A stretch of 60,053 nucleotides of DNA from a phage. Position numbers and translations under genes: made by a program. Shown in pieces: positions 1,787-59,838 of this stretch. The notes under the pieces were generated by a model. The model was not told where the DNA came from and did no database searches. It saw only the letters and a list, made by a program, of their open reading frames with translations. Location of the stretch: NCBI GenBank assembly GCA_012409925.1, contig GCA_012409925.1_4804.1. One strand, 5' to 3'. The stretch's first letter is position 1. Each line of letters opens with the position of its first letter.

Positions 1787-2511
1787 TCTATCATATCCCC
1801 AGTTCTGTTTCCAGGTCCGTTACCTATGTGCCCGTGAGTGGATACATTTGTGCCGCCGATTGTGGTGCCAGTCGGAAGCGTTGCCGTCGTTCCTTCTTTC
1901 CCTTCTATACCACCATTGAATGTTGCCTTTCCATTCACTATCAGTTGTTGGTCGATAGTGGTGATTGGTGTTTTCACGTTTACCCCAGCTGATGCGGTTA
2001 TGTTTATCGAGTCATCACTTAATGCAATTCGTACAGCGCCGCTGAGTGACTGAATTACCATTGAGCCTGCATCCTCTCCGCTTATGGTGTATTTTCGGAA
2101 TATATCCGGTATGAACAGTCCATCAGCGAAAGTTTTAACGCGACCATTGGTAGGCGCGGTCGGCTTCAATTCTTCAAGGAATGTCGACAACTCGCGGTCG
2201 CCAGCGAATATCCAGCCCAAATCACCTTCTTTCAAAGGAAAGTTGATTACAAAGCCGCCGCCGCCGATTGCCAATACAGGAATTGACACCAGAGGTTGAC
2301 GCTCCACTGGTTTATCATCAAGACTTACGAAATGAATAACAGGCTTTATGACTGCTAAATTCTGTTTGCGGTCATAAGATATTACTTGTGCAGGAATCAT
2401 GCCGTCAGTGGTATACTTGCCACGGTCCAGCATTCCCTGCAGCGCGGCAAACATACTTGATTTGTCAGTTTGGTTGGGGCTTGTAAGTTGAGTTAACTTC
2501 TCTGCCATCAT
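1783..2511 (-). CDS. baseplate central spike/hub-like protein
   Basis: ORF track frame; start moved to ATG at 2511 (AAGGAG RBS 3 nt upstream; track used TTG at 2535); Gly-rich central part and C-terminal beta-rich tail ending in a THGH His motif reminiscent of spike-tip domains. Confidence 0.4.
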   Translation of the reverse strand: MMAEKLTQLTSPNQTDKSSMFAALQGMLDRGKYTTDGMIPAQVISYDRKQNLAVIKPVIHFVSLDDKPVERQPLVSIPVLAIGGGGFVINFPLKEGDLGWIFAGDRELSTFLEELKPTAPTNGRVKTFADGLFIPDIFRKYTISGEDAGSMVIQSLSGAVRIALSDDSINITASAGVNVKTPITTIDQQLIVNGKATFNGGIEGKEGTTATLPTGTTIGGTNVSTHGHIGNGPGNRTGDMIE

Positions 2512-2568
2512 AGACTCCTTATATCTGATCAACAAATTATAATCTATAAGGAGTCTATAAGCAATATT

Positions 2569-30722: not shown

Positions 30723-30733
30723 GCACTTTTTCG

Positions 30734-32303: not shown

Positions 32304-32567
32304 ATGAACACGCTTATTCTCATCGCTACGTTGTCCATCGGAAGTGGTCGCACCTTATCGCTGTACGACCATAGTGCAAATTGCGCTTACCCTACGCGCG
32401 TTGCGGCAATAGTTAATAGTGCAAATCGAATGCTATTCGAGACTTGTTGGCGGGTCGATAACGAGAAAGGGCGCATCATCTTAGGTTATAGTGCGAATCT
32501 GCTGGTGGAGTCGTTCGATTGGACGGTTGAAGGTCGTAAATTGTTACGTAAGGTGACTAAAAGATGA
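32304..32567 (+). CDS. hypothetical protein, 87 aa (carries three in-frame motif copies)
   Basis: ORF track; GGTGG RBS; ATAGTGCAAAT-type motif occurs three times in frame as Ser-Ala-Asn, so coding status is uncertain. Confidence 0.35.
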   Translation: MNTLILIATLSIGSGRTLSLYDHSANCAYPTRVAAIVNSANRMLFETCWRVDNEKGRIILGYSANLLVESFDWTVEGRKLLRKVTKR

Positions 32568-32681
32568 CTTATAATAATACACTTTCTAACGCGTTTATGG
32601 TTGTAACCTTCCCCGTCGTATTACCGATGGCCCTAGAAGTGGAGAAAATGTGTTCTAGGGCCGTTTTATAGTGCAAATTGG

Positions 32682-33155: not shown

Positions 33156-33280
33156 AGTGCAAAATCCCATAGTGCAAATTAATAGTGTGAATTATACAAT
33201 GGATGGACATTATATTCAAGTGCAGATTGATGTTCATTATGGCTATAAACATACACAAATCATAGTGCTGAATGAATAGC

Positions 33281-33874
33281 GGACCGTGGTGCGTGGTGTA
33301 CTGTTTGATACGTATAAAATAAATCCATCCCTTTTGCCGCTTGTTATGCAAATCAATGACTTAGCCGCTGCTGGCTGGTTGAAGCGTATCATGACGTATC
33401 ATCCGTATTGCCGCAAGTCTTTGTTTTTACTTATATCTTACGGATAATACGTATAAATATAAGTTTAGTATAAGTATGAGGATGTAGAAAAAAAATTAAT
33501 TTAAATGTTTTTAAAATGGAGTTAATTAATTTTTAGAATTATTCTGGTTACAATAAGAAAAAATGGCGTATCATCCGTATCATCCGTATGAGTGTACCAG
33601 TAGAATCCAGGCGCGGCGCACCTTACAGCCATGATACGTCTCAATACGGCCAAAAACCTATCCGTAAGAGTGTACGCATCAACCAAAGAATCCAGGCGCG
33701 GCGCACTCTTCCACACCACACACCACGGTTCAATCTCCAAAATCCACACACTAAAAGTCACAATCACCGTATCATTCTCCAAAAATAAATCCAAATTTCC
33801 ATTTTATTTATTATTTTCATCCACAATATCCTAAATTCCATCCGTATCAACCAAGCCTCAACCCACCACGGTCC
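33281..33874. repeat. iteron cluster B: ATCCGTATC-type repeats, 19-bp direct repeat and AT-rich block, bracketed by 11-bp inverted repeat
   Basis: GCGTATCATCCGTATCATCCGTA at 33567-33589 identical to 17181-17203; further copies at 33385-33410, 33437-33457, 33631-33649, 33659-33668, 33766-33777 and 33841-33851; GAATCCAGGCGCGGCGCAC at 33603 and 33688; GGACCGTGGTG (33281) / CACCACGGTCC (33864). Confidence 0.8.
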
Positions 33875-38320: not shown

Positions 38321-38535
38321 TTTGCATACTCCATAGCATATTGCTGCAACTTGAATGCAGCTTTGTTTAGTTGTTTGTGTCTTGCGTACAAGCACTCACG
38401 TTCTTCTTCAGGACAATCGGCACGAAGAATTGTCATTGCAATGCTTGACATGGCATTAAGGGTGCGCTGAAAAGCCGACACCATACGCAACTCATTGCGC
38501 TTATTAAAAGACAACTTACCCAGCGCGGCATTCAT
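38317..38535 (-). CDS. hypothetical protein, 72 aa
   Basis: ORF track frame; ATGA overlaps at both ends. Confidence 0.4.
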   Translation of the reverse strand: MNAALGKLSFNKRNELRMVSAFQRTLNAMSSIAMTILRADCPEEERECLYARHKQLNKAAFKLQQYAMEYAK

Positions 38536-38849
38536 AATCGCACCTCGACACACGATTCACTAGCCTCGAAGCTCCAGCCTTCCAGCCCGACTTCGCCGCA
38601 ACAGCGCACCTTTGCCCAACCAGTCATGAGCCATTGGTGATACTTTTCGAAGTAGGTCGGCTTTTCTGAATAACAATGTACGAGGCCGTCATTGTCAATG
38701 GCCACGTAACGCGTCCAAGGCGCGACGGGTACAACTACGTCGCCGTGGTCCTCTGGCCAAGGCTTGATGTGTACAGCTGTGTTCAAGTCTACGTTTAACA
38801 CGCTTCCTAACCGCTCGTCTTGTTCCTTGTCGATGCCTAAGTAAATCAT
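38532..38849 (-). CDS. hypothetical protein, 105 aa
   Basis: ORF track. Confidence 0.45.
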   Translation of the reverse strand: MIYLGIDKEQDERLGSVLNVDLNTAVHIKPWPEDHGDVVVPVAPWTRYVAIDNDGLVHCYSEKPTYFEKYHQWLMTGWAKVRCCGEVGLEGWSFEASESCVEVRL

Positions 38850-38934
38850 AATTCACCTCACTTGTTCGTCTTGATGAAAAGAGTATAAGCATTGATAAAA
38901 GAAAAGGCAAGCATTTAGCTCACCTTTTTGATAT

Positions 38935-43740: not shown

Positions 43741-43800
43741 TTAATCCTCCTGATACGGCTTTGTTATATTGTTGCATGGATATATCCTTTCAGGGTGCGG

Positions 43801-43824
43801 TAAATAAACGCCAGAAATCTGGCG
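43801..43824 (-). terminator. terminator-like hairpin
   Basis: On minus strand CGCCAG-loop-CTGGCG followed by TTTATTTA. Confidence 0.4.
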
Positions 43825-43876
43825 TTGTATATTAATATAGTAAAACTCAATTTAAAGCAATATAACTGGTGAACTA

Positions 43877-44551: not shown

Positions 44552-44842
44552 CTACACCTCTTGATCTCTTTGCTGTTGAATCGCGGCTGAAGCTTCGTCA
44601 AAATTGACTGGCTCAACAGTGAACGTTGCGCTGACGGTAAGGTCTTTAATAGTCAGAAGTGTGTTGAATCGCTCGGCCTGAAGATTCATAGCGACATGCG
44701 TTGATACGTTAAGGATTGCACCAACAACTTCCTCCACTGCGTAGCCTGCAAACAAGGGGAGAATCTGGTTGACAAGCTTAAGCTCGTTTTCAACACGAAG
44801 CTTTTGCGCTTCTTCAACGGTCATCATTTTTGGTTCGTTCAT
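44552..44842 (-). CDS. hypothetical protein, 96 aa
   Basis: ORF track. Confidence 0.45.
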   Translation of the reverse strand: MNEPKMMTVEEAQKLRVENELKLVNQILPLFAGYAVEEVVGAILNVSTHVAMNLQAERFNTLLTIKDLTVSATFTVEPVNFDEASAAIQQQRDQEV

Positions 44843-46132: not shown

Positions 46133-46292
46133 CTTTCTTTCCTTCGGTGATCAATACCTGCAGTATAATATTGAGTGATACAAAGTCAACAATATTTACC
46201 ATTTAGTTCACAATTTCGATTTACTTTGCTTTATACTATATCTGCAATTATACTATCAAAAAATATTTCCGCACTAACAAAGGTCGCCTGAA

Positions 46293-48829: not shown

Positions 48830-48858
48830 GACCCACACTTGTTGTGGGTCTTTTTTCG
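48830..48858 (+). terminator. rho-independent terminator
   Basis: GACCCACA-cttgt-TGTGGGTC followed by TTTTTTCG. Confidence 0.65.
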
Positions 48859-48935: not shown

Positions 48936-49931
48936 ATGAACATGAAACAACCTGTAATGATTATCGGCGGCGGTTTGGCAGGACTTATCACGGCTTGTCA
49001 CTTTCCGAACTCTATTGTGTACGAAGCAGGCGAACGCGTCGCGCAGCACAAGGCGCTGCTACGATTTCGCGGCGAAGAAGTAAGCCGTATTACCGGAATC
49101 CCCTTTAAGGCCGTGACAGTCGATAAGGCTGTGTATTTTCGTGGCAACTACTATCACGACCACTGCCCGATTAACCTTGCCAACATGTACTCTATGAAAG
49201 TCACCAACCAGTTTGGCAGCCGCTCAATCATGAAGCTTCAAACTGCTACGCGCTACATAGCGCCGGATGACTTTTATGATCAACTTGTCGATAAACTGGG
49301 TGACCGTATATTCTTTAATACTCCGGTCGACACGCTTTGCGGCTATAGCGAGACGCCAATCATCAACACATCGCCGCTGCCAGTCATGATGAAGCTTGCT
49401 GGTATTGATCAAAAGCTCGACTTCTCGTTTGATAAGGCAAATATTCGCGTTTATCGTTTTAAGATTAAGCGCAAGTGTGAACTTTATCAAACAATTTACT
49501 TCCCTGACTATTCTGTAAGGACTTACCGCGCATCAATCACTGGTGACACGCTGATCATTGAAACAATTCCATTGGTAAGCGTCAGCGCGGCAGCAGTTGA
49601 AGCCGCTGGCGGCATTACCCGTTATCGCGACATGAAGCTGCGTGCAGAAGTGGATGAAGTTCTTACCGCTTTTGGTCTTTCATGGAATGACATCTCTTTG
49701 GAAGAAGTTGAAAAGGTTGACCAGAAGTATGGCAAAATTGTCGACATTCCGAAAGACTTGCGCCACGCCTTACTGCTCCAGTTGACTATGGATTTGAACG
49801 TATTTAGTGTCGGTCGATTCGCTACTTGGCGAAACATTTTGCTTGATGACGTCGCTCATGACCTTGCTGAAGTTGAAAAACTCATCAAAGCAAATAACTA
49901 TCAAAAATTTGCTTATATTGCTAATAAATAA
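48936..49931 (+). CDS. FAD/NAD(P)-binding Rossmann-fold oxidoreductase, 331 aa
   Basis: N-terminal dinucleotide-binding fingerprint MKQPVMIIGGGLAGL; family not resolved. Confidence 0.5.
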   Translation: MNMKQPVMIIGGGLAGLITACHFPNSIVYEAGERVAQHKALLRFRGEEVSRITGIPFKAVTVDKAVYFRGNYYHDHCPINLANMYSMKVTNQFGSRSIMKLQTATRYIAPDDFYDQLVDKLGDRIFFNTPVDTLCGYSETPIINTSPLPVMMKLAGIDQKLDFSFDKANIRVYRFKIKRKCELYQTIYFPDYSVRTYRASITGDTLIIETIPLVSVSAAAVEAAGGITRYRDMKLRAEVDEVLTAFGLSWNDISLEEVEKVDQKYGKIVDIPKDLRHALLLQLTMDLNVFSVGRFATWRNILLDDVAHDLAEVEKLIKANNYQKFAYIANK

Positions 49932-49996
49932 TTTGCTTTCTGCTTCAATGGGCGTATACTTTAATCATTGAAGCAGAACTCATAGAGGAAACGAAA

Positions 49997-50443
49997 ATGA
50001 AACGCATCACTGGAATCGCGCTTGCCGCGACTGCTATTCTCGGAACCATGTATATGGAAGCGACTGAAGCCGCTGTCCGTACTTCCGATTCAATCGCTGT
50101 TTACGATTGCGAAGCGATGGACGGCAAGACCGCAGCGACGACTGGCGCAACAATTACCACTTACATCGGTGTGAACGAGCAAGAAGGTCTGAATATTCAG
50201 ATTCAGGGATTCACCGGAAAAGGTGCCAACCGGACTCCGTGGATGCAGCGTTTCACTTTCGTTCAGCCTCGTTCAACTGGCGGCTTTATTAACCTGATTG
50301 GGGAAAACCGTTCTGGTGCAGAAATCTTTACATCAATGAGTTCTAATAATGAACCAAAGAAAAGTTTTCAGTTGCTTTATAACGCACAATTCGTTTATCA
50401 TTGCACCTTCTCTGGTGATCAGCAACTAGTGAATTACCGTTAA
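49997..50443 (+). CDS. secreted/periplasmic protein, 148 aa
   Basis: N-terminal signal-peptide-like MKRITGIALAATAILGTMYMEA; two Cys in mature part. Confidence 0.45.
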   Translation: MKRITGIALAATAILGTMYMEATEAAVRTSDSIAVYDCEAMDGKTAATTGATITTYIGVNEQEGLNIQIQGFTGKGANRTPWMQRFTFVQPRSTGGFINLIGENRSGAEIFTSMSSNNEPKKSFQLLYNAQFVYHCTFSGDQQLVNYR

Positions 50444-50456
50444 TAGGATAATTAAA

Positions 50457-51260
50457 ATGAAAGTTGAATTAATTCGATACACCCAAGATGCACTTGACCT
50501 TTTGCTGGAAACAAAGAACACGCGCATGATTGGTAAGCCAGTCTCTGAGATGACAGAATCAGAGAAGCAAGAGCACTGGCGCTACATGCTTGATACAATC
50601 AAGTCGCCTTTTGACTTTGTGGACTATATCTTTGACATCACTGATGTATCAAAGAATATGACTCATCAGATGGTGCGCACACGCACAGGTGCATATCAAG
50701 AACGCACAAGCCGCGCTCAGGAGTCGTCAGCATTTGATGCGATTCGTCCTGCCAAATTTACTTACCCAGAGGATGATCCAAAGGGATGGACTCGTCATGA
50801 CGAGAAGGCTGCTGAACTGGCAGAGAAATGGGATGATGCAATGGCAACCATTGACGCCCTATACCAAGAACTTCGCGCGGCTGGCGCAGAGATTCAAGAT
50901 GCACGTGCCGTGTTGCCTTCTAATATGCAAACGCATATCATGGCAAAGTTCAACTTGCGCACGCTGCAGCAGATGGCGTCAAACCGCTTGTGCACGCGCA
51001 CCCAAGGCGAGTATCAAGAAGTATTCCGCGCAATGGTTGCGGAAGTCCTCAAGGTGCACCCGTGGGCAAATCCACTATTACAGCCGCAATGCATCGGTAT
51101 GGGTAAATGCGCGTTTCCTCGTCATGGCAAAGCCCATTGCCCTTGGTATCGTGATTGGATGGATACCACGGCACAGCAAGAAGAGTTGCGCATCCAGTTT
51201 TGGAGTGCAATGCCAATCACCAACAATCCAGTTGCTAAAGATGGAGTATCAAAAGGATGA
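50457..51260 (+). CDS. thyX: divergent flavin-dependent thymidylate synthase (ThyX)-like protein
   Basis: ...MTHQMVRTRTGAYQERTSRAQES... and ...ARAVLPSNMQTHIMAKFNLRTLQQMASNRLCTRTQGEYQEV... align with ThyX signature blocks, but RHR is RTR and a Cys-rich C-terminal tail is appended. Confidence 0.55.
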   Translation: MKVELIRYTQDALDLLLETKNTRMIGKPVSEMTESEKQEHWRYMLDTIKSPFDFVDYIFDITDVSKNMTHQMVRTRTGAYQERTSRAQESSAFDAIRPAKFTYPEDDPKGWTRHDEKAAELAEKWDDAMATIDALYQELRAAGAEIQDARAVLPSNMQTHIMAKFNLRTLQQMASNRLCTRTQGEYQEVFRAMVAEVLKVHPWANPLLQPQCIGMGKCAFPRHGKAHCPWYRDWMDTTAQQEELRIQFWSAMPITNNPVAKDGVSKG

Positions 51261-52132
51261 GCATTAAAAACAGCGAAATCTTAAACGTATTCGACCTTGA
51301 CGGAACGCTGTTTGATGACCGTTGGCGCTTAGACCGCATCAAGGTGGCAGGTCCGTTGTCAGACTATGATGACTATCACAGCGGTATTGGTTATGATCAG
51401 TTCTATCCTCACATTGCATCAGCAGTAGAGTCGGCATCTCTTCGCGGTGAGGCGGTTGAATATTGGACTGCAAGGCCAGAAAAATACAGACAAGTGACTT
51501 TTGAACGTCTAGACAATGTTTTCCCTTTTGATGAATTTACAATCAAGATGAGAGACTATGGCGACAAACGTCCATCAACTATTATGAAATCTGCATGGCT
51601 ATCGCACGCTTTGCGGCACGGCGATTATCGAATCATCAATGTATTCGACGACCGACAAGACGTACTCGCGCGGATGCAAGAAGAAGCTTTGCACTATAAT
51701 TCCATGGCGCAAAATAAAATCGCCTTTACATTTAATCTTTGCAAGGCAGGTGAAGTGGTGCAACAATTAGCAGTTGATCCAAGTGCAACAGGGAAAGAAG
51801 AGACTAAACTTGTTGAAGTTGAACAACAAGCCCCAGCAACCGCTGCTGATATTCTTGATGCGATGGCCGCGACCTTCCGTGAGCGCAATGCCGTTTATGG
51901 CGATAACGCTGTGATGGTAGGTCAGGTTATGCAGGTGTTGTTCCCTAATGGCGTAACTTTGAAGACACCGGAAGACTACCACATGTGGCATCTGTTCGAG
52001 CTTAAGATTGTCAAGCTTACACGCTTCGCAATCAGCGGCCTGAAGCACGAAGACTCAATACACGACGATGGTGTTTATAGCGCCATGTGTGAACGTCTTG
52101 TTAACACCCATAATATTAATTTCAATAAATAG
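51257..52132 (+). CDS. HAD-superfamily phosphatase-like protein
   Basis: N-terminal motif I ...VFDLDGTLFD...; ATGA overlap with ThyX-like gene. Confidence 0.55.
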   Translation: MSIKNSEILNVFDLDGTLFDDRWRLDRIKVAGPLSDYDDYHSGIGYDQFYPHIASAVESASLRGEAVEYWTARPEKYRQVTFERLDNVFPFDEFTIKMRDYGDKRPSTIMKSAWLSHALRHGDYRIINVFDDRQDVLARMQEEALHYNSMAQNKIAFTFNLCKAGEVVQQLAVDPSATGKEETKLVEVEQQAPATAADILDAMAATFRERNAVYGDNAVMVGQVMQVLFPNGVTLKTPEDYHMWHLFELKIVKLTRFAISGLKHEDSIHDDGVYSAMCERLVNTHNINFNK

Positions 52133-52161
52133 TTTACTTGTGCGTTTCGATGAGTTATATT
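52133..52161 (+). promoter_or_regulatory. candidate sigma70-type promoter with conserved hairpin/leader (copy A)
   Basis: TTTACT, 17-nt spacer, TATATT; spacer and leader GATGAGTTATATTTACCTCATCGAAACGAA nearly identical to element at 58976-59006. Confidence 0.45.
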
Positions 52162-52197
52162 TACCTCATCGAAACGAAGTCCAAAAAGGATAAATAA

Positions 52198-52881
52198 ATG
52201 AAAAAAGTAATTGTTGTAACAGGTTCCAATTCCGGTCTTGGTAAATCTATTTTTGACACCCTTGGCGCTTACGGTCATAACGTGCTTGGCATCGATTCAG
52301 CATACGGACATGACGTCCGCGATGCTAAACAGATGAAAGAAATTTTAAGCCCATATGATGTTGAAGGCTTGATCAACTGTGCTGGTGTCAACTCTAACAA
52401 TTGGTTTGAAGATGTAAACTATGAAGAGTTTAACCGCGTTATGCACACCAACGCATTCTCTTTCGTTAACACGACTCAGGCTGCGCTGAAAAGTCTTATC
52501 GACAACAAAGGCTTTGTGATCAACATCGTTTCCAACGCTGCGCATATTCCTATGACGTCCAGCTTGTGTTATAATGCATCCAAGGCCGCTGCGCTTATGA
52601 TCAGCAAGCAGATGGCTCACGAACTTACGCCTAAGTACGGCATCACGGTATTCTCTATTAGTCCTAACAAGTTACGCGGCACTGGCATGTCTAAACAGAT
52701 TGAAGATGCCGTTTGTGCGACTCGCGGCTGGACTCCTGAATACGCTGCTGAATACCAGAAAAAGGCATTGATGAACGGATTGGAGACTGAGCCGCAAGTA
52801 ATTGCTGACTTCATTCGCCATATCTTAATTACGGGCGCATGGCGCTTTATGTCTGGTACTGATATTCCATTTGGTAAATAA
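52198..52881 (+). CDS. short-chain dehydrogenase/reductase (SDR)
   Basis: Cofactor motif VVTGSNSGLGKS and catalytic Y-x3-K (YNASKAA); 227 aa. Confidence 0.65.
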   Translation: MKKVIVVTGSNSGLGKSIFDTLGAYGHNVLGIDSAYGHDVRDAKQMKEILSPYDVEGLINCAGVNSNNWFEDVNYEEFNRVMHTNAFSFVNTTQAALKSLIDNKGFVINIVSNAAHIPMTSSLCYNASKAAALMISKQMAHELTPKYGITVFSISPNKLRGTGMSKQIEDAVCATRGWTPEYAAEYQKKALMNGLETEPQVIADFIRHILITGAWRFMSGTDIPFGK

Positions 52882-52971
52882 ATCAAGAACATTTGAAGTT
52901 GTCGCTGCTCCTGAAAAACAGGACGAAGACAACACAGTAATTAATCAATAATATTTAATTAAGGAAACAAA

Positions 52972-53523
52972 ATGCCACATTTTAAAATTGAACAAATCGC
53001 CCTGTCAATTCCAGGTGCTCAGCGCGCACAGAATTTCCTGGCTAAAATCGGCCTGACAGAATGGTTCCATGATCACGTTGTTGCTACTGGTCGCGTATTT
53101 GAAGCTGATGTCTTTAAGGGTCAGCGCGGCGATTGCACCAACGAAGCTGACTTGCGCTTCAACTATCAGGCTGGCAACGGCACCGATGGCGGCGCTGGTA
53201 AGCCTCTTGAGCTTGAAATTCTTGACTATACAAAAGGTTGCAACTGGATTCACGAAAACATCGAATACATCGATGCGCACGACAATCAGGTTAGCCATCT
53301 TGGTATGCACGTGACTGCCGCTGAACTTGCTGAATGGCGCAAGTTCTTTAAAGAAGAAGGCATTCAGGTTGCGCAGGAAGTTGTGACCGACTCTCACACC
53401 AACCCAAACATTGCTGGTCAGCGTCGTTACAACTATGTGATCTTTGATACGCGTGAAATCATTGGTGTCGACCTTAAGTTCATCGTGCGGTTGAATCAAG
53501 ACGGTACTCCGTACACTGTATAA
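52972..53523 (+). CDS. hypothetical protein, 183 aa (VOC/glyoxalase-like candidate)
   Basis: ORF track; weak resemblance to vicinal-oxygen-chelate fold (HxGxxV, conserved Glu); low confidence. Confidence 0.3.
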   Translation: MPHFKIEQIALSIPGAQRAQNFLAKIGLTEWFHDHVVATGRVFEADVFKGQRGDCTNEADLRFNYQAGNGTDGGAGKPLELEILDYTKGCNWIHENIEYIDAHDNQVSHLGMHVTAAELAEWRKFFKEEGIQVAQEVVTDSHTNPNIAGQRRYNYVIFDTREIIGVDLKFIVRLNQDGTPYTV

Positions 53524-53539
53524 CGAATCGTGAATCTGT

Positions 53540-53565
53540 GGCCGTCCTAATGGGCGGCCTTTTTG
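53540..53565 (+). terminator. rho-independent terminator
   Basis: GGCCGTCC-taat-GGGCGGCC followed by TTTTTG. Confidence 0.55.
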
Positions 53566-53577
53566 TAGGAGGCTAAT

Positions 53578-54120
53578 GTGTTATTTCTCCCTTATGACTT
53601 CGAAACAACCGGATTGACCGTGCACCCGAAAGCGCCGCTTGGGATGCAGCCGCGCCCTATTGAATTTGCAGGCCTGTTGACAGACGGCAAAGAGATTATT
53701 GAAACGTTTGAATTCATAATTAATCCTGAAATCGTGATTGAAGAAATTATCACAAAGATTACCGGATTAACAAATGAAGACCTTGAGTGCAATCCACCGT
53801 TCATCAATTTCGTCCCGCAGCTAAAAGAAATCTTCAAGAAGACTGATGCAACTATCGCGCACAACCATGCGTTCGATAAAAACATTCTTGATTATGCACT
53901 ACAGCGCGAAGGACTTACGCTTGATGATGTTAATTTTCCAGAAATAAACATATGTACAGTTGAGCAAACCTTGCCTATTTTTGGCCGAAGAGTTAAGCTT
54001 CAAGAGCTGTATGAATTATATTTCGGAAAATATGAACAGAAACACCGTGCATTAGACGACGTAATATTACTGCACAAAGTCTGCCAACAAATTGGCGTAT
54101 ATGACATCTGGAGTAAATAA
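53578..54120 (+). CDS. DnaQ-like 3'-5' exonuclease (DEDDh)
   Basis: GTG start with GGAGG RBS; Exo I YDFETTG, Exo II AHNHAFD, Exo III HRALDD. Confidence 0.75.
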   Translation: MLFLPYDFETTGLTVHPKAPLGMQPRPIEFAGLLTDGKEIIETFEFIINPEIVIEEIITKITGLTNEDLECNPPFINFVPQLKEIFKKTDATIAHNHAFDKNILDYALQREGLTLDDVNFPEINICTVEQTLPIFGRRVKLQELYELYFGKYEQKHRALDDVILLHKVCQQIGVYDIWSK

Positions 54121-57017
54121 TGTTTCCACAATTGAGAGTTCGCAGCGGTTACACGTTCAAAGAAGTTTATGGACGGCATCCTGAAATTATAGCACGGCTC
54201 AAAGAGTTGGGCTGCGAAGTCGCGGCATTAGTTGATAACAACACATGGGGTCACGTTCGCTGGGAAAAGGAATGCCAGAAAAATGATATTAAGCCTATGT
54301 TTGGGATGGAGATTCCAATCATCGACCCTGATGCGGACCCTAAAAAGGGATTCAAACCGAAGGCTTGGATATTGGCCCTTGACTTAAAATCTTTTTACAA
54401 TGCTACAACACTTTCAACGCAGCGCGGTGGGCTTACCCGTGCAGAGTTCGGTGCGCTCGATGGCGTCGTTAAATTCTGTGGCGGTGCCGTGGAGTTGCTG
54501 CGGCCAGAGGACTACGACTATATAGACGTCAACCCATCATCGTTCCTTTTGGCAAAGCGCCAGGCATTGGCTCATCGTAGCAGTGGAAGGCCGCTGGTTT
54601 TAACCGGATACAATCACATGCCTTCTCCTGAGCACGTTGACTTCGCTTATGCTTGGGAAGTGCGCGACACGGTCAAGCCGCACTGCATCGTTGACGCGGA
54701 AGACTTGCGCAAACAGCTTAAAGGCATCTTGACTGAAGATGAGCTCAATCAGGCAACGGCCAATGCTGTTGACATAGCAAACGGCATAGTCGGACTTGAC
54801 CTGAAATTGCGTAAGGCACCGATTATTCACCTTGCTGGTGACATGGTAAAGCTTGCGCGTGAGGGGATGGAGTACCGTCTAAAAGCAGGTCACATCAAAG
54901 AATGGACTCAGGAATATGAGGACCGCTTCAACGAAGAAATTCACCAGATTCAGCTGAAAGATTTCGACTCATACTTTCTGGTAGTAGCAGACCTTGTACG
55001 ATTCGCAAAAACAAAAATGCTCGTCGGTCCTGCTCGCGGCTCATCGGCTGGTTCACTTGTTTGCTATTGCCTCGGCATCACGGAAGTGGACCCAATCCCG
55101 TATAAGCTGCTGTTTGCCCGATTCATCGACGTAAGTCGCGCCGACCTTCCTGACATCGACATCGACTTTGAAGATACCAAACGCTATATGGTGTTTGATT
55201 ATCTTAAAGAGAAATACGGCGAAATGAACGTTGCAAAGCTTGGCAACATCAACACGCTTAAGGCCAACTCAGTAATGGCTCAAGTTGGTAAGAAGTTCAA
55301 CATTGGATACCACGAAACAGCCAACATTAAAAACGCACTGCTTGAATACTCATCCGGTGACGCCCGTTATGGTCACGGCCTGGAGGATACCTTTGCAACA
55401 ACGACCACGGGTCAAGAGTTCGTGGCTAAATATCCTGATGCCGCGCGTTGCATGGGTGACCTTGAGATTCACCCGTCCCACACAGGTGTTCACGCAGCGG
55501 GAATCATTGTGTGTAATGACCCAATCTCTGATTACTGTACTGTAACTGCAGAAGGGATTGCGCAAATCGATAAGCCTGACAGCGAATACCTAAACCTTTT
55601 GAAGCTTGATGCGCTGGGCCTTCGTACTCTCGGCATTATTTCTGATACAGGCGTTATTGATGCTGAAACGCTCTACGGAATCAAGCTTGATGATCAAAGC
55701 GTCCTTGACATTCTTAACGAAAACAAGATGTCAGGCATCTTCCAGTTTGAAGGTGATGCTGTACGCTCAGTAACAAACTTTGTTCACGTCGATAACTTTA
55801 ACAAAATCGACAACCTGACAGCTTTGGGTCGACCTGGCCCGTTGTCATCCGGTATGGCCCAGAAATACATTGAACGCGCGGCAGGGCGTGCGCCGATTGA
55901 ATACGACGTGCCGCAGCTTGAGCCGTACTTAAAAGAGACTTACGGCGTGTTTCTTTACCAAGAGCAAATCATGGCCGTGGTTAAAGAGATTGGTTCATTT
56001 GACTGGGCGAAAACGTCCGCTGTACGTAAGGCGATGTCAGGCCGTAAGGGTGAAGAATACTTTAACAAGCTTGGCGAAGACTTCGTTGCAGGAGCAATAA
56101 ATAACGGTGTACCGGAAGCGGATGCAAGAAAGCTTTGGCAAGCGATGGCCACGTTCGGGTCATGGGGCTTTAACAAGTCACACTCCGTGTCATACGCGGT
56201 CGTGACCTACTGGACATTGTGGCTTAAGCGACACTACCCGTTGGAATTTGCCGCAGCCTGCTTACGCGCTGCTAAGGACGAAGACCAGACGATTGCGATA
56301 TTACGTGAACTTGCGAAGGAAGGCGTGGATTACGTTCCAATCGACCCTGATCACTCTTCGATGAACTGGACCATCGCGAACGGAAAGCTAATCGGCGGCA
56401 TCATGAACGCGAAAGGGTACGGAATGGTGAAGGCGATGAAGTATATCGAAGCACGTGAAGCCGGAACCTTAACGCAAAAGCAAAAGGATGCATTGGCCAA
56501 TGCTGAAGTTAAATACGGCGACCTTACAGAGATGCACACCAAGTTCGGCTGGGCATATAATGACCCCTATCTGATTGGCGTTACTTCCGGTGCTTCAATA
56601 CGCCAGATGAAGGAAGTCGGCGATGACGAGCGCGCAATAGTAATCGGCAAGTTGACCAAGAAAGTGCTGGCAGACGAGAACGAAGCAACACGCATCCGTA
56701 AACGTCTTGAGCGCGGCATTTATACAAAGCACGGCAAACTTAAAAAGGGTCTTCAAGCTGATGGCCGCTACGCAGAGTTTGACCAGTATGGAAACAAGCT
56801 TGAGACTCAGTTCATCGACCTTATGTGCAAAGACGACTCGACCGACTCGCCAATGCGCTTCAGGATTCGTCCAGAGAAGTTCCAGAAGTACGGGAAGTAC
56901 ATCGCTGAAAACGTCGGGAACGGCGCATTCTTCCTGATGAAAGGTCGTAAGCTTGAAGGCATTGACATGTTCATCGTTGACGTGATCAAACAGGTGTATC
57001 CAGATGGCAACAAATAA
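54120..57017 (+). CDS. dnaE: DnaE-type (family C) DNA polymerase catalytic subunit
   Basis: 965 aa; palm motifs ...GPARGSSAGSLVCYCLGITEVDP... and ...FARFIDVSRADLPDIDIDFE...; N-terminal PHP-like LRVRSGYTF lacks canonical His residues. Confidence 0.8.
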   Translation: MFPQLRVRSGYTFKEVYGRHPEIIARLKELGCEVAALVDNNTWGHVRWEKECQKNDIKPMFGMEIPIIDPDADPKKGFKPKAWILALDLKSFYNATTLSTQRGGLTRAEFGALDGVVKFCGGAVELLRPEDYDYIDVNPSSFLLAKRQALAHRSSGRPLVLTGYNHMPSPEHVDFAYAWEVRDTVKPHCIVDAEDLRKQLKGILTEDELNQATANAVDIANGIVGLDLKLRKAPIIHLAGDMVKLAREGMEYRLKAGHIKEWTQEYEDRFNEEIHQIQLKDFDSYFLVVADLVRFAKTKMLVGPARGSSAGSLVCYCLGITEVDPIPYKLLFARFIDVSRADLPDIDIDFEDTKRYMVFDYLKEKYGEMNVAKLGNINTLKANSVMAQVGKKFNIGYHETANIKNALLEYSSGDARYGHGLEDTFATTTTGQEFVAKYPDAARCMGDLEIHPSHTGVHAAGIIVCNDPISDYCTVTAEGIAQIDKPDSEYLNLLKLDALGLRTLGIISDTGVIDAETLYGIKLDDQSVLDILNENKMSGIFQFEGDAVRSVTNFVHVDNFNKIDNLTALGRPGPLSSGMAQKYIERAAGRAPIEYDVPQLEPYLKETYGVFLYQEQIMAVVKEIGSFDWAKTSAVRKAMSGRKGEEYFNKLGEDFVAGAINNGVPEADARKLWQAMATFGSWGFNKSHSVSYAVVTYWTLWLKRHYPLEFAAACLRAAKDEDQTIAILRELAKEGVDYVPIDPDHSSMNWTIANGKLIGGIMNAKGYGMVKAMKYIEAREAGTLTQKQKDALANAEVKYGDLTEMHTKFGWAYNDPYLIGVTSGASIRQMKEVGDDERAIVIGKLTKKVLADENEATRIRKRLERGIYTKHGKLKKGLQADGRYAEFDQYGNKLETQFIDLMCKDDSTDSPMRFRIRPEKFQKYGKYIAENVGNGAFFLMKGRKLEGIDMFIVDVIKQVYPDGNK

Positions 57018-57426
57018 CCGTGAGCAGAAATACATATTCGTGCCTTTGAAGAAGCATTCAGAATCGGTATTGAAGCTTCAACGAATCGAGTCGATGACTG
57101 GTGATGGCGTGCCGGACGTAATCGGCACCAACCGGAAAGGGCGCGGCTTTTGGCTTGAAATGAAGTTCTTTGAATCGTGGCCTGCAAGGGCCACCACTGC
57201 ACCTTTCAGAAATGCATTTGAGAAAGGCCAGTGCAGCTTTCTTTCTTCGTGGAATGATTGGAAATACCCATCATTTGTTTTGCTTAAAGTCGATTCTGAG
57301 AAGATGTTTTATTTAGTCCACCCTTCTATTGAATTAAAGCGTTATAATACTGCAGACGTTCAACGTGAGATAATCGTGAAGGGAACTATTCATCACATCA
57401 TCAAGTATTTAGAGGAATTGTCATGA
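57004..57426 (+). CDS. VRR-NUC domain nuclease
   Basis: PD-(D/E)xK-type motifs ...GDGVPDVIG... and ...GFWLEMKF...; overlaps DnaE stop. Confidence 0.6.
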   Translation: MATNNREQKYIFVPLKKHSESVLKLQRIESMTGDGVPDVIGTNRKGRGFWLEMKFFESWPARATTAPFRNAFEKGQCSFLSSWNDWKYPSFVLLKVDSEKMFYLVHPSIELKRYNTADVQREIIVKGTIHHIIKYLEELS

Positions 57427-58946
57427 AAACACAAGGAATGCGCCACCAATTATTGGCGCTTGATAAAGCAGGCCGCAGAAAATACTTTGCTTATTTTATG
57501 GAACAGGGTCTTGGTAAAACCTGGACTGCTTTGGCAGAGTTTGAAAAACACTTCGCCGCTGGCGCATTTGATGCCATGGTTGTCATCGCTCCTAACGGTG
57601 TCCACTCGAACTGGATTCGTCGTGAAGCACCAGAACACCTTTCCATTAAATGGATTGGTCATTACTGGCGCGGAAATGACAAGATGAAAACTAAAAAGGG
57701 TAAAGCCATTTGGGAGAAGATGTTTGCTGATCACTATCCTGAAGGTGAAGTGCCTGCGCGCATCTTCTCATTCAACATCGATACTGTCAACACACCAGTC
57801 GGTTATCAACACATCGAGTCGGTCTTGAAGAAATACCGCTGTTTGATGATCATTGATGAATCGACGCGTATCAAAAATAACACAGCCAAACGCTCCATCA
57901 AGGTTGTAGAATTGGGGCGGCTGGCAAAGGCCCGTCGCATACTTTCCGGCACGCCGCTGCCGCGCTCGCCTGCTGATATTTACATGCAGTATCACTTCCT
58001 TGAAGCTGGCTTGCTTGGCACCAAATCGTTCCGTGCATTTAACTCTGAATTCACAGTACTGCTTGAAGCGCACGACCCAGAGATGCAGGCCATTCTCAAG
58101 AAAATCGGCGGCAGTGGCTATGGGATTCCGCAAGTGCCGCGCAAAGACCAGTTTGGCCGACCGATGTACAAGAACCTTGACAAGCTTATCCGGCTGATGG
58201 AACCGCACTATTTCCGCGCGACAAAAGCGGAATACCTGCCGGACCTTCCAGAGAAGGTGTACAAGTTTATCGACTTCGAGTTGTCGCCTAAGCAGCGCGA
58301 TGTCTATGATGAACTCAAGAATGAGTACAACTATCTTATGGAATACAAAGGCGAAGAAGAAAACGTTAAGTTTGAGATGATCGCGTCTCGCACTAAGATG
58401 AAGCAGGTGACATCAGGCTTTGTTAAGGTGTATGATGAGATGGTCTACATGGAAGACAACCCACGATTCACGGCCTTTAAGGACTATGTGGAAGGGGTGC
58501 TGGAAGACGACCCAGAGCGCAAATTCATCGTGTGGGCCATCTTTAAGGAAGAGATGAACCAGATTAAGGATTGGCTTGAGTCTGAAGGAGTGGTCACTGG
58601 TGTGTATAACGGTGAGACGTCAAAAGAGCAGCGTGAGTTCTTGATTGATGACTTCCAGAAAAACACAGTCGAGAACGGTGGAACACAAGTCTTGGTTTGC
58701 CACGCTGCAGCGGCAGGCATCGGAATCACGCTTACCGCCGCCGACTTGGCAATCTATTATTCTTGCAACTATGACAACGAGCTGCGCAAGCAATCCGAAG
58801 ACCGAAATCACCGCATCGGCACCAAATCAAGCGTGTTGTATGTTGATTTTATTGGGGTTGATACCATCGACGAAGAAATTCAGCGTTCACTGAGTATGAA
58901 GTCCATGCTTGCTGATCACATCCTCGACGGCAAAAAGATGAATTAA
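57423..58946 (+). CDS. SNF2-family helicase/ATPase
   Basis: Motif I EQGLGKTW, motif II MIIDESTRIKN (DExx); 507 aa; adjacent to VRR-NUC gene. Confidence 0.75.
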   Translation: MKTQGMRHQLLALDKAGRRKYFAYFMEQGLGKTWTALAEFEKHFAAGAFDAMVVIAPNGVHSNWIRREAPEHLSIKWIGHYWRGNDKMKTKKGKAIWEKMFADHYPEGEVPARIFSFNIDTVNTPVGYQHIESVLKKYRCLMIIDESTRIKNNTAKRSIKVVELGRLAKARRILSGTPLPRSPADIYMQYHFLEAGLLGTKSFRAFNSEFTVLLEAHDPEMQAILKKIGGSGYGIPQVPRKDQFGRPMYKNLDKLIRLMEPHYFRATKAEYLPDLPEKVYKFIDFELSPKQRDVYDELKNEYNYLMEYKGEEENVKFEMIASRTKMKQVTSGFVKVYDEMVYMEDNPRFTAFKDYVEGVLEDDPERKFIVWAIFKEEMNQIKDWLESEGVVTGVYNGETSKEQREFLIDDFQKNTVENGGTQVLVCHAAAAGIGITLTAADLAIYYSCNYDNELRKQSEDRNHRIGTKSSVLYVDFIGVDTIDEEIQRSLSMKSMLADHILDGKKMN

Positions 58947-58959
58947 TATCAAAAATAAT

Positions 58960-58988
58960 TTGACTTGTCATGGAAGATGAGTCATAAT
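58960..58988 (+). promoter_or_regulatory. candidate sigma70-type promoter with conserved hairpin/leader (copy B)
   Basis: TTGACT, 17-nt spacer, CATAAT; spacer and leader GATGAGTCATAATTACTTCATCGAAACGAA nearly identical to element at 52149-52179. Confidence 0.45.
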
Positions 58989-59020
58989 TACTTCATCGAA
59001 ACGAAACAGAGGAATACAAA

Positions 59021-59284
59021 ATGGTACGCATCCTTGAACGTTACAAAAATGAAGCTACTGGCGCAATCGCTTTCAAACGTCTTTTGGTCAAAGAAATTGA
59101 CGGGATGTTCCGCGTTGTTAAAGAGTTTGATTATGGCAACGGTGCTGGGGTGAATACCGTTATTATGCCTGGCATCAAGGCATATAAAACCTTAAAAGGC
59201 GCTGAGAAGGCTTTGGCGGCTTGGAAACCTGAACGTTATCAAATGACCCGTGTTGAAGGGCTAATGCAAGAAGGTAAAATATGA
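59021..59284 (+). CDS. hypothetical protein, 87 aa
   Basis: ORF track. Confidence 0.45.
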   Translation: MVRILERYKNEATGAIAFKRLLVKEIDGMFRVVKEFDYGNGAGVNTVIMPGIKAYKTLKGAEKALAAWKPERYQMTRVEGLMQEGKI

Positions 59285-59838
59285 GCAATATTAATTGGGA
59301 AGATGATTTGCCGCAGGTTGCTCCTGAGAGCATTCAAGAGCGCCTTGCGCGCTTAGTGTCTGAACTGGCAGAACGCCAAGAAGCTTTGACAGAGCTTGAA
59401 GATGAAGCTGATATGCAAAAGCAGCGCATCAGCGAAATCAAAACTGTTCTGCTTCCTGGCGTTATGGATGAGCTTGGCGTGTCCGAAATCAAGCTTGAGG
59501 ACAAGACCAAAATCAAGGTCGAGTCCAAGGTGAATGCTTCGATCAAGAAAGAAAACGAATTAAAAGTTTTCGATTGGCTTGTCAACAACGGTTACGGCGG
59601 CCTGATCAAGTCCAGCGTCACGGCTGAGTTCGGTCGCGAAGAAATCGAACAGGCGCAAGAGATTGTTGCCGCGCTGCGTGAAGATGGTGTTGAAGCCACA
59701 CTGAAACAAGGCGTTCATTCTGCTACACTGAAGTCCTTTGTAAAAGAACAGCTGGAAGCAGGCAATCCAGTTAGTGAAGATATTAGCGTTTTTGAATACA
59801 AAGAAGCTAAAATAACCTTGCCTAAAAGCAAAAAGTAA
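59281..59838 (+). CDS. hypothetical acidic coiled-coil protein, 185 aa
   Basis: ORF track; ATGA overlap with upstream gene. Confidence 0.45.
   Translation: MSNINWEDDLPQVAPESIQERLARLVSELAERQEALTELEDEADMQKQRISEIKTVLLPGVMDELGVSEIKLEDKTKIKVESKVNASIKKENELKVFDWLVNNGYGGLIKSSVTAEFGREEIEQAQEIVAALREDGVEATLKQGVHSATLKSFVKEQLEAGNPVSEDISVFEYKEAKITLPKSKK

What the first reader, a model, noticed from the sequence alone, without database searches (positions are those of the whole stretch)
52133..52179. Near-identical promoter-hairpin-leader element present twice
GATGAGTTATATTTACCTCATCGAAACGAA (52149-52179, before the SDR gene) and GATGAGTCATAATTACTTCATCGAAACGAA (58976-59006, before gene 59021..59284) are about 90 percent identical, each embedded in a TTtACT/TTGACT - 17 nt - TATATT/CATAAT promoter and containing a GATGAG/CTCATC inverted repeat. 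A third partial copy (hairpin plus GAAACGAAA) precedes gene 49997. Likely a co-regulated promoter class with an operator hairpin.
Basis: seen in the sequence. Interest (0 to 1): 0.45.

Follow-up and report, generated by a model that had tools for sequence, protein, structure and literature searches.

The report
Repeated phage promoter–stem-loop cassette
Two nearly identical 47-base stretches between genes of this E. coli phage are host-type promoters of the "promoter plus stem-loop" cassette kind already described in T4-like phages; the shared "leader" is a start-site block that many unrelated phages also carry.

Summary
The window is a Wifcevirus (E. coli myovirus, family Lindbergviridae). 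The repeat is real: 52149-52178 and 58976-59005 match at 27/30, with 0 expected by chance, and similarity runs from the -35 hexamer to about +11. Both copies lie between a stop codon and an SD-ATG and fit sigma-70 promoters. The shared part is not an operator. It is the -10 hexamer, a 5-nt discriminator and the block C-ATCGAAACGA(AAC). The same block, in the same register after a -10, occurs in RB49, where PeSL cassettes were defined. It also occurs in Slopekvirus, KVP40, about 10-19 promoters of a T1-like phage, a FelixO1-like phage, phi80 and at least 7 Pbunavirus promoters. It resembles the mapped starts of T7 A1 and A3. The hairpin is strong only in copy 1 (12 bp perfect, -10 in the loop). 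Copy 2 has 5 bp plus a G·T pair. A different 13-bp hairpin encloses the -10 before gene 49997. Best reading: PeSL-type promoter/stem-loop cassettes, in which the stem-loop can form only in RNA read through from the upstream gene. The operator idea is not supported. This is a new member of a known kind. The cross-family start-site block is the one lead worth following.

The parts
52133..52138 (+). Copy 1, -35 hexamer TTTACT, directly after the TAG stop (52130-52132) of the polynucleotide kinase/phosphatase gene
52143..52154 (+). Copy 1, left arm CGTTTCGATGAG in the promoter spacer. It is the reverse complement of the start-site block.
52156..52161 (+). Copy 1, -10 hexamer TATATT, lying in the hairpin loop
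52165..52176 (+). Copy 1, right arm CTCATCGAAACG. It overlaps the conserved block CATCGAAACGA (52167-52177). The start site is predicted at A52168 by alignment with the annotated T7 A1 start.
52186..52200 (+). Copy 1, SD AAGGA and the ATG (52198) of the FabG-like short-chain dehydrogenase gene 52198-52881
58960..58965 (+). Copy 2, -35 hexamer TTGACT, 13 nt after the stop of the SNF2-type helicase gene (57423-58946)
58976..58997 (+). Copy 2, weak inverted repeat GATGAG (58976-58981) / TTCATC (58992-58997) with the -10 CATAAT (58983-58988) between the arms
58994..59007 (+). Copy 2, conserved block CATCGAAACGAAAC, with the start site predicted at A58995. It is followed by SD GAGGA (59009-59013) and the ATG at 59021 of an 87-aa protein (phrog_27467).
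49933..49978 (+). Third element: -35 TTGCTT (49933-49938), 13-bp perfect inverted repeat 49938-49950 / 49966-49978, and -10 TATACT (49955-49960) in the 15-nt loop. The right arm starts at CAT (start site predicted at A49967). It precedes gene 49997-50443.
38866..38915 (-). Fourth promoter, with a degenerate copy of the block: TTGCCT-17-TATACT-ctttt-CATCAAGACGAAcaag. It precedes gene 38532-38849 on the minus strand.
2510..2558 (-). Same architecture in the structural module: -35 TTGCTT, 14-bp perfect inverted repeat, TATAAT in the 21-nt loop. The right arm covers the SD AAGGAG and the start of the baseplate-spike gene.

Best explanation
Copies 1 and 2 are internal sigma-70 (host RNA polymerase) promoters of the replication and nucleotide-metabolism gene block of a Wifcevirus. 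They belong to the promoter-early-stem-loop (PeSL) kind of cassette.

The cassette layout is: stop codon, A+T-rich run, -35, 17-nt spacer, -10, 5-nt discriminator, the block C(-1)A(+1)TCGAAACGA(AAC), a purine-rich leader, SD, ATG. This part stays at a fixed distance from the -10, so it works at transcription initiation or at the RNA 5' end. The most likely roles are start-site placement and efficient promoter escape, or 5'-end identity of the transcript (inferred).

In copy 1, and with an unrelated sequence in the element before gene 49997, the spacer carries the reverse complement of the start-site block, so the -10 sits in a hairpin loop. A transcript started at the cassette's own promoter contains only the 3' arm. 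The full stem-loop can form only in RNA read through from the upstream gene, and no terminator lies in between. There it most likely acts as an attenuator or insulator, or as a 3'-end or processing structure, as proposed and partly shown for PeSL stem-loops (inferred here, not shown). Copy 2 is the same promoter with a decayed stem-loop.
For: Identity of the phage: (Wifcevirus, Lindbergviridae).

Promoter geometry and placement.

Purifying selection: the three elements on the plus strand differ at 0-3 positions in 75-85 nt in the 6-9 Wifcevirus genomes that cover each. The element at 2510 is identical in 5 genomes although the flanking DNA differs by up to 9%.

Same block in the same register:
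- An IMG/VR scan gave 38 loci. After six coding-looking hits were dropped, 27 distinct contexts remained. About two dozen are promoter-like, with TAT at the -10 position although this was not part of the pattern, and 22 of the 27 are not Wifcevirus.
- RB49 and Krischvirus FL20 PeSLs read TTGACA-17-TAAGAT/TAATAT, with a GGGGGTA...TACCCCC stem around the -10, followed directly by CATCGAAACGAAAC-SD-ATG.
- Other carriers are Slopekvirus KP27 (annotated as putative promoters), KVP40, the FelixO1-like phage Zyzzx and the Drexlerviridae phage MM01, and the phi80 immunity region.
- Pbunavirus PA5 has at least 7 promoters of the form AGTGCTTTACT-17-(-10)-N5-CATCGAAACGCGAAAC.
- In a T1-like phage, an anchor independent of the block (the box AATAGCAC) finds the block at a fixed offset of 49-50 nt in 7 promoters exactly and in about 9 more in degenerate form.

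Start site: the annotated T7 A1 start is the A of CC[A]TCGAG, which aligns with C[A]TCGAAAC.

Not a translation element: its distance to the SD varies, and in a jumbo-phage contig it precedes tRNA-Arg.

Not host mimicry: it is absent from E. coli genomes apart from 67 of 5426, mostly laboratory strains of the DH5alpha/DH10B type. In DH10B the match lies in a prophage immunity region that I take to be phi80.

Stem-loops:
- Folding z-scores are -5.5 (copy 1), -3.8 (third element) and -6.0 (2510 element).
- Perfect inverted repeats are enriched, 7 against 1.2 expected.
- Among 56 distinct promoters carrying the block, the mean z is -1.6 and 43% have z < -2.
- Orthologous intergenic promoters of Serratia phage MTx carry GC hairpins in the spacer.
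- Two PA5 promoters have a 9-bp stem, CGATGAG(G/A)T...A(C/T)CTCATCG, around the -10, with one compensatory change.

Experimental support in the literature: a wild-type PeSL promoter gave about 13,000 Miller units, and one PeSL stem-loop cut reporter expression as strongly as rrnB T1 (PMC2839356). [quoted passage not shown]
Against: - No transcript data exist for any Wifcevirus, so both the start site and the read-through are inferred.
- The Wifcevirus stem-loops are A/U-rich, have loops of 10-21 nt and are not followed by a U-run. The terminator scan does not call them, whereas canonical terminators are called at 48830 and 53540. Termination is therefore doubtful.
- Copy 2 lacks a convincing stem, so the stem is not required for the promoter.
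- Within the genus the elements are invariant, which gives no covariation. The single compensatory change in Pbunavirus is weak (80 of 500 shuffles reach it).
- The PeSL hallmark of association with gene gain and loss is not seen here. The indel next to the dehydrogenase gene lies downstream of that gene, not at a cassette.
- The role of the ATCGAAACGA block is unknown.
Confidence: 0.6

Rival explanations
1. Operator hairpin: the GATGAG/CTCATC palindrome is the binding site of a dimeric phage repressor or activator that co-regulates the three genes.
For: Copy 1 is a perfect 12-bp palindrome overlapping the -10 and +1, which is a classic operator position. The elements are invariant in the genus.
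Against: Copy 2 has only one full half-site. The third element and the 2510 element have unrelated arm sequences, and half-site centres lie 22, 28 and 35 bp apart. The shared half-site is the start-site block, which is present in Krischvirus, Drexlerviridae, Ounavirinae, Pbunavirus, phi80 and others that share no regulator. In Pbunavirus the left arm sits at a different place in the spacer and co-varies with the right arm. That fits base pairing better than a fixed protein site.
Confidence: 0.07
2. DNA-level structure: the inverted repeats act in DNA. They could extrude as a cruciform that makes the promoter sensitive to supercoiling, or serve as recombination hot spots and linkers that move cassettes between phages (the PeSL mini-circle idea).
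For: All pairs in the three strong Wifcevirus stems are Watson-Crick. Near-identical cassettes occur in unrelated phage families, which suggests horizontal spread. PeSL mini-circles have been reported (PMC2839356).
Against: Loops of 10-21 nt disfavour cruciform extrusion (general knowledge). Related cassettes contain G·T pairs that work only in RNA (copy 2; G-T pairs are noted in the PeSL figure legend). No indel or rearrangement among Wifcevirus genomes lies at a cassette.
Confidence: 0.12
3. The hairpin has no function of its own. Copy 1's left arm is a chance or duplicative inverted copy of the start-site block, kept only because it lies in a constrained promoter spacer. Only the promoter matters.
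For: Copy 2 appears to be the same promoter without the stem. The whole intergenic region is conserved, so the stem cannot be singled out. Covariation is minimal.
Against: Perfect inverted repeats are six-fold enriched and three of them enclose a -10. Stem-loops are enriched across 56 promoters from several families. Complementarity between the spacer and the start-site block recurs independently in Pbunavirus PA5 and in a T1-like phage promoter, CGTTTCG...CGAAACG.
Confidence: 0.15
4. Translational discrimination of the T4 gene e / soc / 49 type: read-through RNA folds so that the downstream gene is not translated, and only promoter-initiated RNA is translated.
For: This fits the minus-strand element at 2510-2558, where the 3' arm contains the SD AAGGAG and the start codon of the baseplate-spike gene.
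Against: In copies 1 and 2 and the third element the 3' arm ends 6-13 nt before the SD, which stays unpaired in the predicted folds.
Confidence: 0.06

Closest known systems
PeSL (promoter-early stem-loop) cassettes of T4-like phages RB49/phi1, and of T4/PST and KVP40/nt-1 (Arbiol et al. 2010, PMC2839356; Comeau et al. 2014, PMC4122927)
   Same: The intergenic layout is the same: stop codon, A+T-rich run, sigma-70 -35 and -10, a stem-loop in the spacer or overlapping the -10, then SD and ATG. There are several copies per genome. RB49 cassettes carry the very same CATCGAAACGAAAC directly after a stem that encloses the -10.
   Different: The host phage is a Lindbergviridae myovirus of about 68 kb, not a T4-like phage. 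There are only 2-4 copies rather than about 50. The stems are A/T-rich with 10-21-nt loops, instead of G(n)-loop-C(n). The cassettes lie in the conserved replication module and before a baseplate gene, not in hyperplastic ORFan regions. No linked indels were seen.
Sigma-70-like promoters of Pbunavirus (PB1-like phages; start sites mapped in phage 14-1 by ONT-cappable-seq, Putzeys et al. 2024, PMC10914365)
   Same: Same virus family. PA5 promoters read AGTGCTTTACT-17-TATAGT/CATAAT-N5-CATCGAAACGCGAAAC. Two of them have GATGAG/CTCATC arms around the -10, as in copy 1. The AGTGCTTTACT box also occurs in this window at 30727 and 31161.
   Different: The published motif analysis covered -50 to +1 only, so the transcribed block and the stem were not described. 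The left arm lies next to the -35 rather than next to the -10. The downstream genes differ.
E. coli RNA polymerase early promoters A1 and A3 of phage T7
   Same: Both have TTGACT at -35 and a 17-nt spacer, then TAC...C[A]TCGA at the start (A1) or [A]TGAAACGACAG (A3), with annotated start sites.
   Different: Only partial identity of the transcribed block. No stem-loop around the -10. T7 has a tandem early promoter cluster at the genome end, whereas these are internal promoters.
Promoters buried in translational-repressor hairpins of T4 genes e, soc, 49 and I-TevI (from my own knowledge of the T4 literature; not checked here)
   Same: A promoter lies inside a hairpin, so only read-through RNA can fold. 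The element at 2510-2558 matches this, including sequestration of the SD.
   Different: In copies 1, 2 and the third element the SD is outside the stem. The T4 examples use late promoters (TATAAATA), not sigma-70 promoters.
Multi-copy promoters of T1-like phages (Drexlerviridae), e.g. AugustePiccard/Bas01
   Same: The same -10, discriminator and CATCGAAACGA block, often with a stem-loop just before or around the -10. One copy has CGTTTCG in the spacer pairing with CGAAACG, as in copy 1.
   Different: They carry an upstream box AATAGCAC-N5-TGCTAAA about 22 nt before the -10 and often lack a canonical -35. There are about 19 copies per genome. I found no published description.

Membership tests
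PeSL cassette | Sigma-70-like promoter (-35, about 17 nt, -10) in an intergenic space between the upstream stop codon and the downstream SD/ATG, with an A+T-rich run upstream | tested here: met
PeSL cassette | Stable stem-loop between -35 and -10, or overlapping the -10 | tested here: met
   Met for copy 1 (12 bp, z = -5.5), the third element (13 bp, z = -3.8) and the 2510 element (14 bp, z = -6.0). Weak for copy 2 (z = -1.9)..
PeSL cassette | Sequence kinship with the cassettes of RB49/phi1 | tested here: met
   RB49 and FL20 cassettes share the TTGAC -35, the 17-nt spacer, a stem around the -10 and CATCGAAACGAAAC before the SD.
PeSL cassette | Many copies, concentrated in hyperplastic regions next to ORFans | tested here: not met
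   Only 2 close copies and 2-3 looser ones in 60 kb. They lie in the conserved replication module and in the baseplate operon.
PeSL cassette | Association with insertions, deletions or replacements between close relatives | tested here: not met
   Gene order at the cassettes is the same in 9 genomes. The nearby indel (two ORFs in Bas98, a remnant at 52882-52971) is not at a cassette.
PeSL cassette | The stem-loop terminates or attenuates upstream transcription; the promoter is strong in vivo | not testable with these tools
   Shown for one RB49/phi1 stem-loop and one promoter only (PMC2839356). The Wifcevirus stems lack a U-run.
PeSL cassette | Formation of mini-circles by recombination between cassettes | not testable with these tools
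   Needs inverse PCR or long reads from infected cells.
Palindromic operator of a dimeric regulator | The same two-fold symmetric sequence with fixed half-site spacing at each co-regulated promoter | tested here: not met
   Full palindrome in copy 1 only. The other hairpins have unrelated sequences, and half-site centres lie 22, 28 and 35 bp apart.
Palindromic operator of a dimeric regulator | The site is restricted to phages that encode the regulator | tested here: not met
   The half-site is found in at least 6 unrelated phage groups.
Intrinsic (Rho-independent) terminator | G+C-rich stem with a short loop, followed by a U-run | tested here: not met
   Not called by the scan, which does call 48830-48850 and 53540-53559. 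The sequences after the stems are AAGTCC, CTCATA and GATGGC.
T4 gene e-type translational hairpin with internal promoter | The 3' arm of the hairpin sequesters the SD and/or start codon; the promoter lies inside the hairpin | tested here: not met
   Not met for copies 1, 2 and the third element (the SD is unpaired). Met for the separate element at 2510-2558.
Known RNA family (Rfam) | Match to a curated covariance model | tested here: not met
   Nothing relevant in 49500-59400 at E <= 1.

The most novel reading that the evidence does not exclude
The block C-ATCGAAACGA(AAC), at -1 to about +14, is a functional element in its own right. It would be a conserved initial-transcribed or 5'-end sequence that virulent and temperate phages of at least six lineages place behind a -10 hexamer. 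These lineages are Krischvirus, Slopekvirus, KVP40-like, Drexlerviridae, Ounavirinae, Wifcevirus/Pbunavirus and phi80. It is absent from the E. coli chromosome. It would either tune host RNA polymerase (start-site choice, escape, resistance to host regulation) or mark the 5' end of phage transcripts for a host factor. The promoter/stem-loop cassettes that carry it would move horizontally between unrelated phages. In that case PeSLs are not a T4-group peculiarity but a pan-phage regulatory module of Gammaproteobacteria.
Probability: 0.3. Interest if true: 0.6.

Novelty: new member of a known kind. Interest (0 to 1): 0.35.

Why it matters
For this phage the result gives a concrete and testable promoter map. 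There are at least two internal host-polymerase promoters in the replication module, plus a promoter buried in an SD-sequestering hairpin before the baseplate spike gene. No transcription data exist for this genus, which is reported to replicate unusually fast.

More generally, PeSL-type cassettes were described only in T4-like phages. Here they also occur in Lindbergviridae, and the same start-site block occurs in T1-like, FelixO1-like and lambdoid phages. If that block has a specific role, it would be a compact, portable determinant of strong phage promoters, useful for annotation and for synthetic biology. It would also be a marker for tracing exchange of regulatory cassettes between unrelated phages.

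Tried and rejected
- **Chance repeat:** rejected.
- **GAAACGAA as a general leader motif:** the 8-mer occurs 5 times in the window. Two occurrences are inside coding sequence (4037 minus strand, 7119), and the one before gene 49997 is out of register.
- **Host-promoter mimicry:** the block is absent from E. coli genomes apart from 67 of 5426, mostly laboratory strains of the DH5alpha/DH10B type; the DH10B copy lies in a prophage immunity region that I take to be phi80.
- **Known RNA family:** none.
- **Literature search for the 12-mer CATCGAAACGAA:** no paper holds it. The vB_Eco4M-7 paper mentions promoters only in its methods, and the extended BASEL paper has no occurrence of the word 'promoter'. 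No supplementary tables are held for the 14-1 start-site paper.
- **Within-genus covariation:** impossible, because the elements are invariant.
- **Covariation in Pbunavirus:** one compensatory pair only, not significant.
- **PeSL-type indels at the cassettes:** not found.
- **A divergent minus-strand promoter created by the palindrome of copy 1:** the -10 and -35 are poor and there is no gene to serve.
- **A match of the block to binding sites of E. coli regulators (Cra, PurR, OmpR) or to 16S rRNA:** considered from memory only; nothing convincing and not pursued.
- **The 22-nt gap between the T1-like upstream box and the -10:** I could not explain it.

Full report
**What the window is.** The region 51000-54000 is 93-97% identical to about 30 records of Escherichia phages of the genus Wifcevirus, such as WFC, ECML-117, vB_Eco4M-7 and Bas98-101. 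The genus belongs to the family Lindbergviridae, together with Pbunavirus. The finding lies in the plus-strand replication and nucleotide-metabolism module. The gene order there is Dda-like helicase, ThyX, polynucleotide kinase/phosphatase, FabG-like dehydrogenase, DnaQ-like exonuclease, DnaE-type polymerase, helicases.

**The observation.** The 30-mer at 52149-52178 recurs at 58976-59005 with 3 mismatches, and none is expected by chance. Read directly, the similarity also includes the -35 region: TTTACTTGT against TTGACTTGT. The consensus scan calls both promoters, TTTACT-17-TATATT and TTGACT-17-CATAAT. Each element fills the gap between the stop codon of the upstream gene and the SD-ATG of the next gene.

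- Copy 1 has a perfect 12-bp repeat, 52143-52154 with 52165-52176, and the -10 lies in the 10-nt loop. It folds at -21.7 kcal/mol, z = -5.5.
- Copy 2 has only five Watson-Crick pairs plus one G·T pair and no significant fold (z = -1.9).
- The third copy is a separate 13-bp perfect repeat, 49938-49950 with 49966-49978, around TATACT, with -35 TTGCTT. Its GAAACGAAA lies between the SD and the ATG, so it does not correspond to the GAAACGAA of copies 1 and 2.
- A better third copy of the leader block is at about 38866-38887 on the minus strand.

**What the shared sequence is.** An exact scan of IMG/VR for TTAYNTCATCGAAACGAA returned 38 loci, of which only 8 are Wifcevirus. After six coding-looking hits were dropped, 27 distinct contexts remained, 22 of them not Wifcevirus. 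In about two dozen of the 27, from contigs of 46-51 kb, 79 kb, 152 kb, 244 kb (KVP40) and 341 kb, the match has the same setting. It sits immediately after a TATAGT- or TATTAT-type hexamer and 10-25 nt before an SD-ATG. The bases at the -10 position are 78-100% T, A, T, although they were not part of the pattern.

A BLAST search with a 32-mer found 1344 phage records, mainly phages of Klebsiella, Escherichia, Pseudomonas, Salmonella and Vibrio. Inspection of individual records gave the following.
- A T1-like phage (AugustePiccard/Bas01) has about ten copies.
- When that genome is anchored on an independent upstream box (AATAGCAC), the block starts 49-50 nt from the box. It is exact in 7 promoters and of the form CATC(A/G)A(C/A)AACGA in about 9 more.
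- Slopekvirus KP27 has it at sites annotated as putative promoters.
- It is also present in a FelixO1-like Hafnia phage and in another Drexlerviridae phage.
- It follows TTGACC-17-TTTAAT in a prophage immunity region of E. coli DH10B that I take to be phi80.
- Pbunavirus PA5 has at least seven promoters of the form AGTGCTTTACT-17-(-10)-N5-CATCGAAACGCGAAAC.

The block is absent from E. coli genomes apart from 67 of 5426, mostly laboratory strains of the DH5alpha/DH10B type. The annotated start of the T7 A1 promoter is the A in CC[A]TCGAGAGG, and that of A3 is [A]TGAAACGACAG. In a joint alignment these line up with C[A]TCGAAACGAAAC. By this analogy the transcripts here should start at A52168 and A58995.

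The block keeps a fixed distance from the -10, while its distance from the SD varies. In a jumbo-phage contig it precedes a tRNA-Arg gene. It therefore belongs to transcription initiation or to the RNA 5' end, not to translation.

**Link to a known kind.** Arbiol et al. 2010 and Comeau et al. 2014 described PeSLs in T4-like phages. These are intergenic cassettes made of a strong sigma-70-like promoter and a stem-loop that lies between -35 and -10 or overlaps the -10, followed by the SD and the ATG. One wild-type promoter clone gave about 13,000 Miller units, and one stem-loop reduced reporter expression as much as rrnB T1.

I fetched RB49 and a close relative. Their cassettes read TTGACA-17-TAAGAT/TAATAT, with GGGGGTA...TACCCCC around the -10, followed directly by CATCGAAACGAAAC, SD and ATG. 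The Wifcevirus copies therefore share architecture and sequence with PeSLs.

Stem-loops are a general companion of this promoter type.
- Among 56 distinct promoters carrying the block, the mean folding z-score is -1.6 and 43% have z < -2.
- The orthologous intergenic promoters of Serratia phage MTx (Myosmarvirus) have GC hairpins in the spacer.
- Two PA5 promoters have a 9-bp stem, CGATGAG(G/A)T...A(C/T)CTCATCG, around the -10. These are the same arms as in copy 1 but placed next to the -35, with one compensatory change. That single change is not statistically strong.
- One T1-like promoter repeats the CGTTTCG...CGAAACG pairing of copy 1.

**Mechanism.** What is shown:
- sigma-70-type geometry and intergenic placement;
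- strong conservation, with 0-3 variable positions in 75-85 nt in the 6-9 genomes that cover each element;
- kinship with experimentally active promoters, namely RB49 PeSLs, T7 A1 and the sigma-70-like promoters of Pbunavirus 14-1;
- enrichment of perfect inverted repeats, 7 against 1.2 expected, of which three enclose a -10.

What is inferred: the start site lies at the 5' edge of the right arm, so a transcript made from the cassette's own promoter lacks the left arm. Only RNA that reads through from the upstream gene can form the stem-loop, and no terminator intervenes. There the stem-loop may attenuate transcription, insulate the downstream unit, or give a stable 3' end after processing.

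The Wifcevirus stems lack a U-run and have large loops, so classical intrinsic termination is unlikely. Copy 2 shows that the promoter does not need the stem.

**Why the operator reading fails.** Only copy 1 is a true palindrome. The strong hairpins in the window differ in sequence and in spacing. The half-site is a promoter block shared by phages that have no common regulator.

**Novelty.** The element is a new member of a known kind: a PeSL-type cassette in Lindbergviridae. It does not meet two of the traits stressed for PeSLs, namely many copies in hyperplastic regions and linkage to indels. I found no description of the conserved start-site block. No paper holds the 12-mer, and the Pbunavirus study analysed -50 to +1 only. 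This is the part that could repay experiments.

**Limits.** There are no RNA data for this genus. The E-values of short BLAST hits are near chance for some taxa, for example E = 0.3 for Pbunavirus; that case was then confirmed by reading PA5 directly. Counts of records are inflated by closely related genomes. The comparison with T4 gene e-type hairpins rests on my own knowledge.

Noticed in passing
window 2510-2558 (minus strand), up to about 2570: TTGCTT-17-TATAAT promoter inside a 14-bp perfect hairpin (-24.5 kcal/mol, z = -6.0). The 3' arm covers the SD AAGGAG and the start codon of the baseplate-spike gene. It is identical in 5 Wifcevirus genomes although the flanking DNA differs by up to 9%. 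It looks like the T4 gene e/soc design, in which only promoter-initiated RNA is translatable.
   Followed up: partly
window 16985-17247 and 33394-33590: Nine copies of GATACGGATGATACGG-like repeats on both strands (0.32 expected), clustered in the two largest non-coding stretches (16875-17437 and 33352-33600). A 13-bp perfect inverted repeat at 16994-17029 is built from the same unit. They could be iterons, an origin or packaging-related; function unknown.
   Followed up: no
window 30627-30760 (minus strand) and 31130-31261 (plus strand): A divergent pair of near-duplicate promoter-plus-leader elements (88% identical). Both carry AGTGCTTTACT-16/17-TATAAT, the same -35 box as Pbunavirus PA5 promoters. 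Both have a structured leader with a compensatory change (TAGCG...CGCTA vs TAACG...CGTTA).
   Followed up: partly
window, e.g. 21607-21757 (both strands), 23875-23991, 43741-43876 (minus), 44617-44660 (minus), 46133-46292 (plus), 49933: At least ten intergenic promoters of the form (T)TTGCTT(T)-16/17-TATAAT/TATACT/TATATT. This is a -35 variant that, from memory, is typical of phage T5 early promoters. It is the dominant promoter type of this phage and differs from the TTTACT/TTGACT -35 of the two copies in the finding.
   Followed up: partly
window 52882-52971: The 90-nt gap after the dehydrogenase gene is the remnant of a deletion. Bas98 has two small ORFs here (L055 9886-10271) and phage kaset has one. 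The window keeps only the last ~60 nt of the second ORF.
   Followed up: yes
L053 (Escherichia phage AugustePiccard), about 19 sites; also L060 (Klebsiella phage KP27) 1190-1265: T1-like phages carry a conserved box, AATAGCAC-N5-TG(C/T)TAAA (a small palindrome, TAGCA/TGCTA), about 22 nt upstream of the -10 of the same promoter family. That is too far for a normal -35. A T4-like Slopekvirus has the same box. I could not explain the spacing.
   Followed up: no
window 29724-30114 (minus strand): A 391-nt stretch without an ORF that contains two copies of cg(t/c)gtaagtc(c/g)ttgttttata and several ccttcgtc motifs. It may be a non-coding RNA or a set of binding sites.
   Followed up: no
window 1700-3300 versus 51000-54000: The window is mosaic. 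The baseplate region is 99.6% identical to Bas101. In the replication region Bas101 is 95.0% identical and the best match is WFC at 96.8%.
   Followed up: no
window 32629-32662: A 10-bp perfect inverted repeat, GGCCCTAGAA...TTCTAGGGCC, between two convergent genes (32304-32567 plus strand, 32682-33170 minus strand). It is a likely bidirectional terminator.
   Followed up: no
L037 (IMG/VR contig of 341 kb) about 3365-3467 (minus strand): In a jumbo-phage contig the same -10 and CATCGAAACGAA block sits 10 nt upstream of a tRNA-Arg gene within a tRNA cluster.
   Followed up: partly
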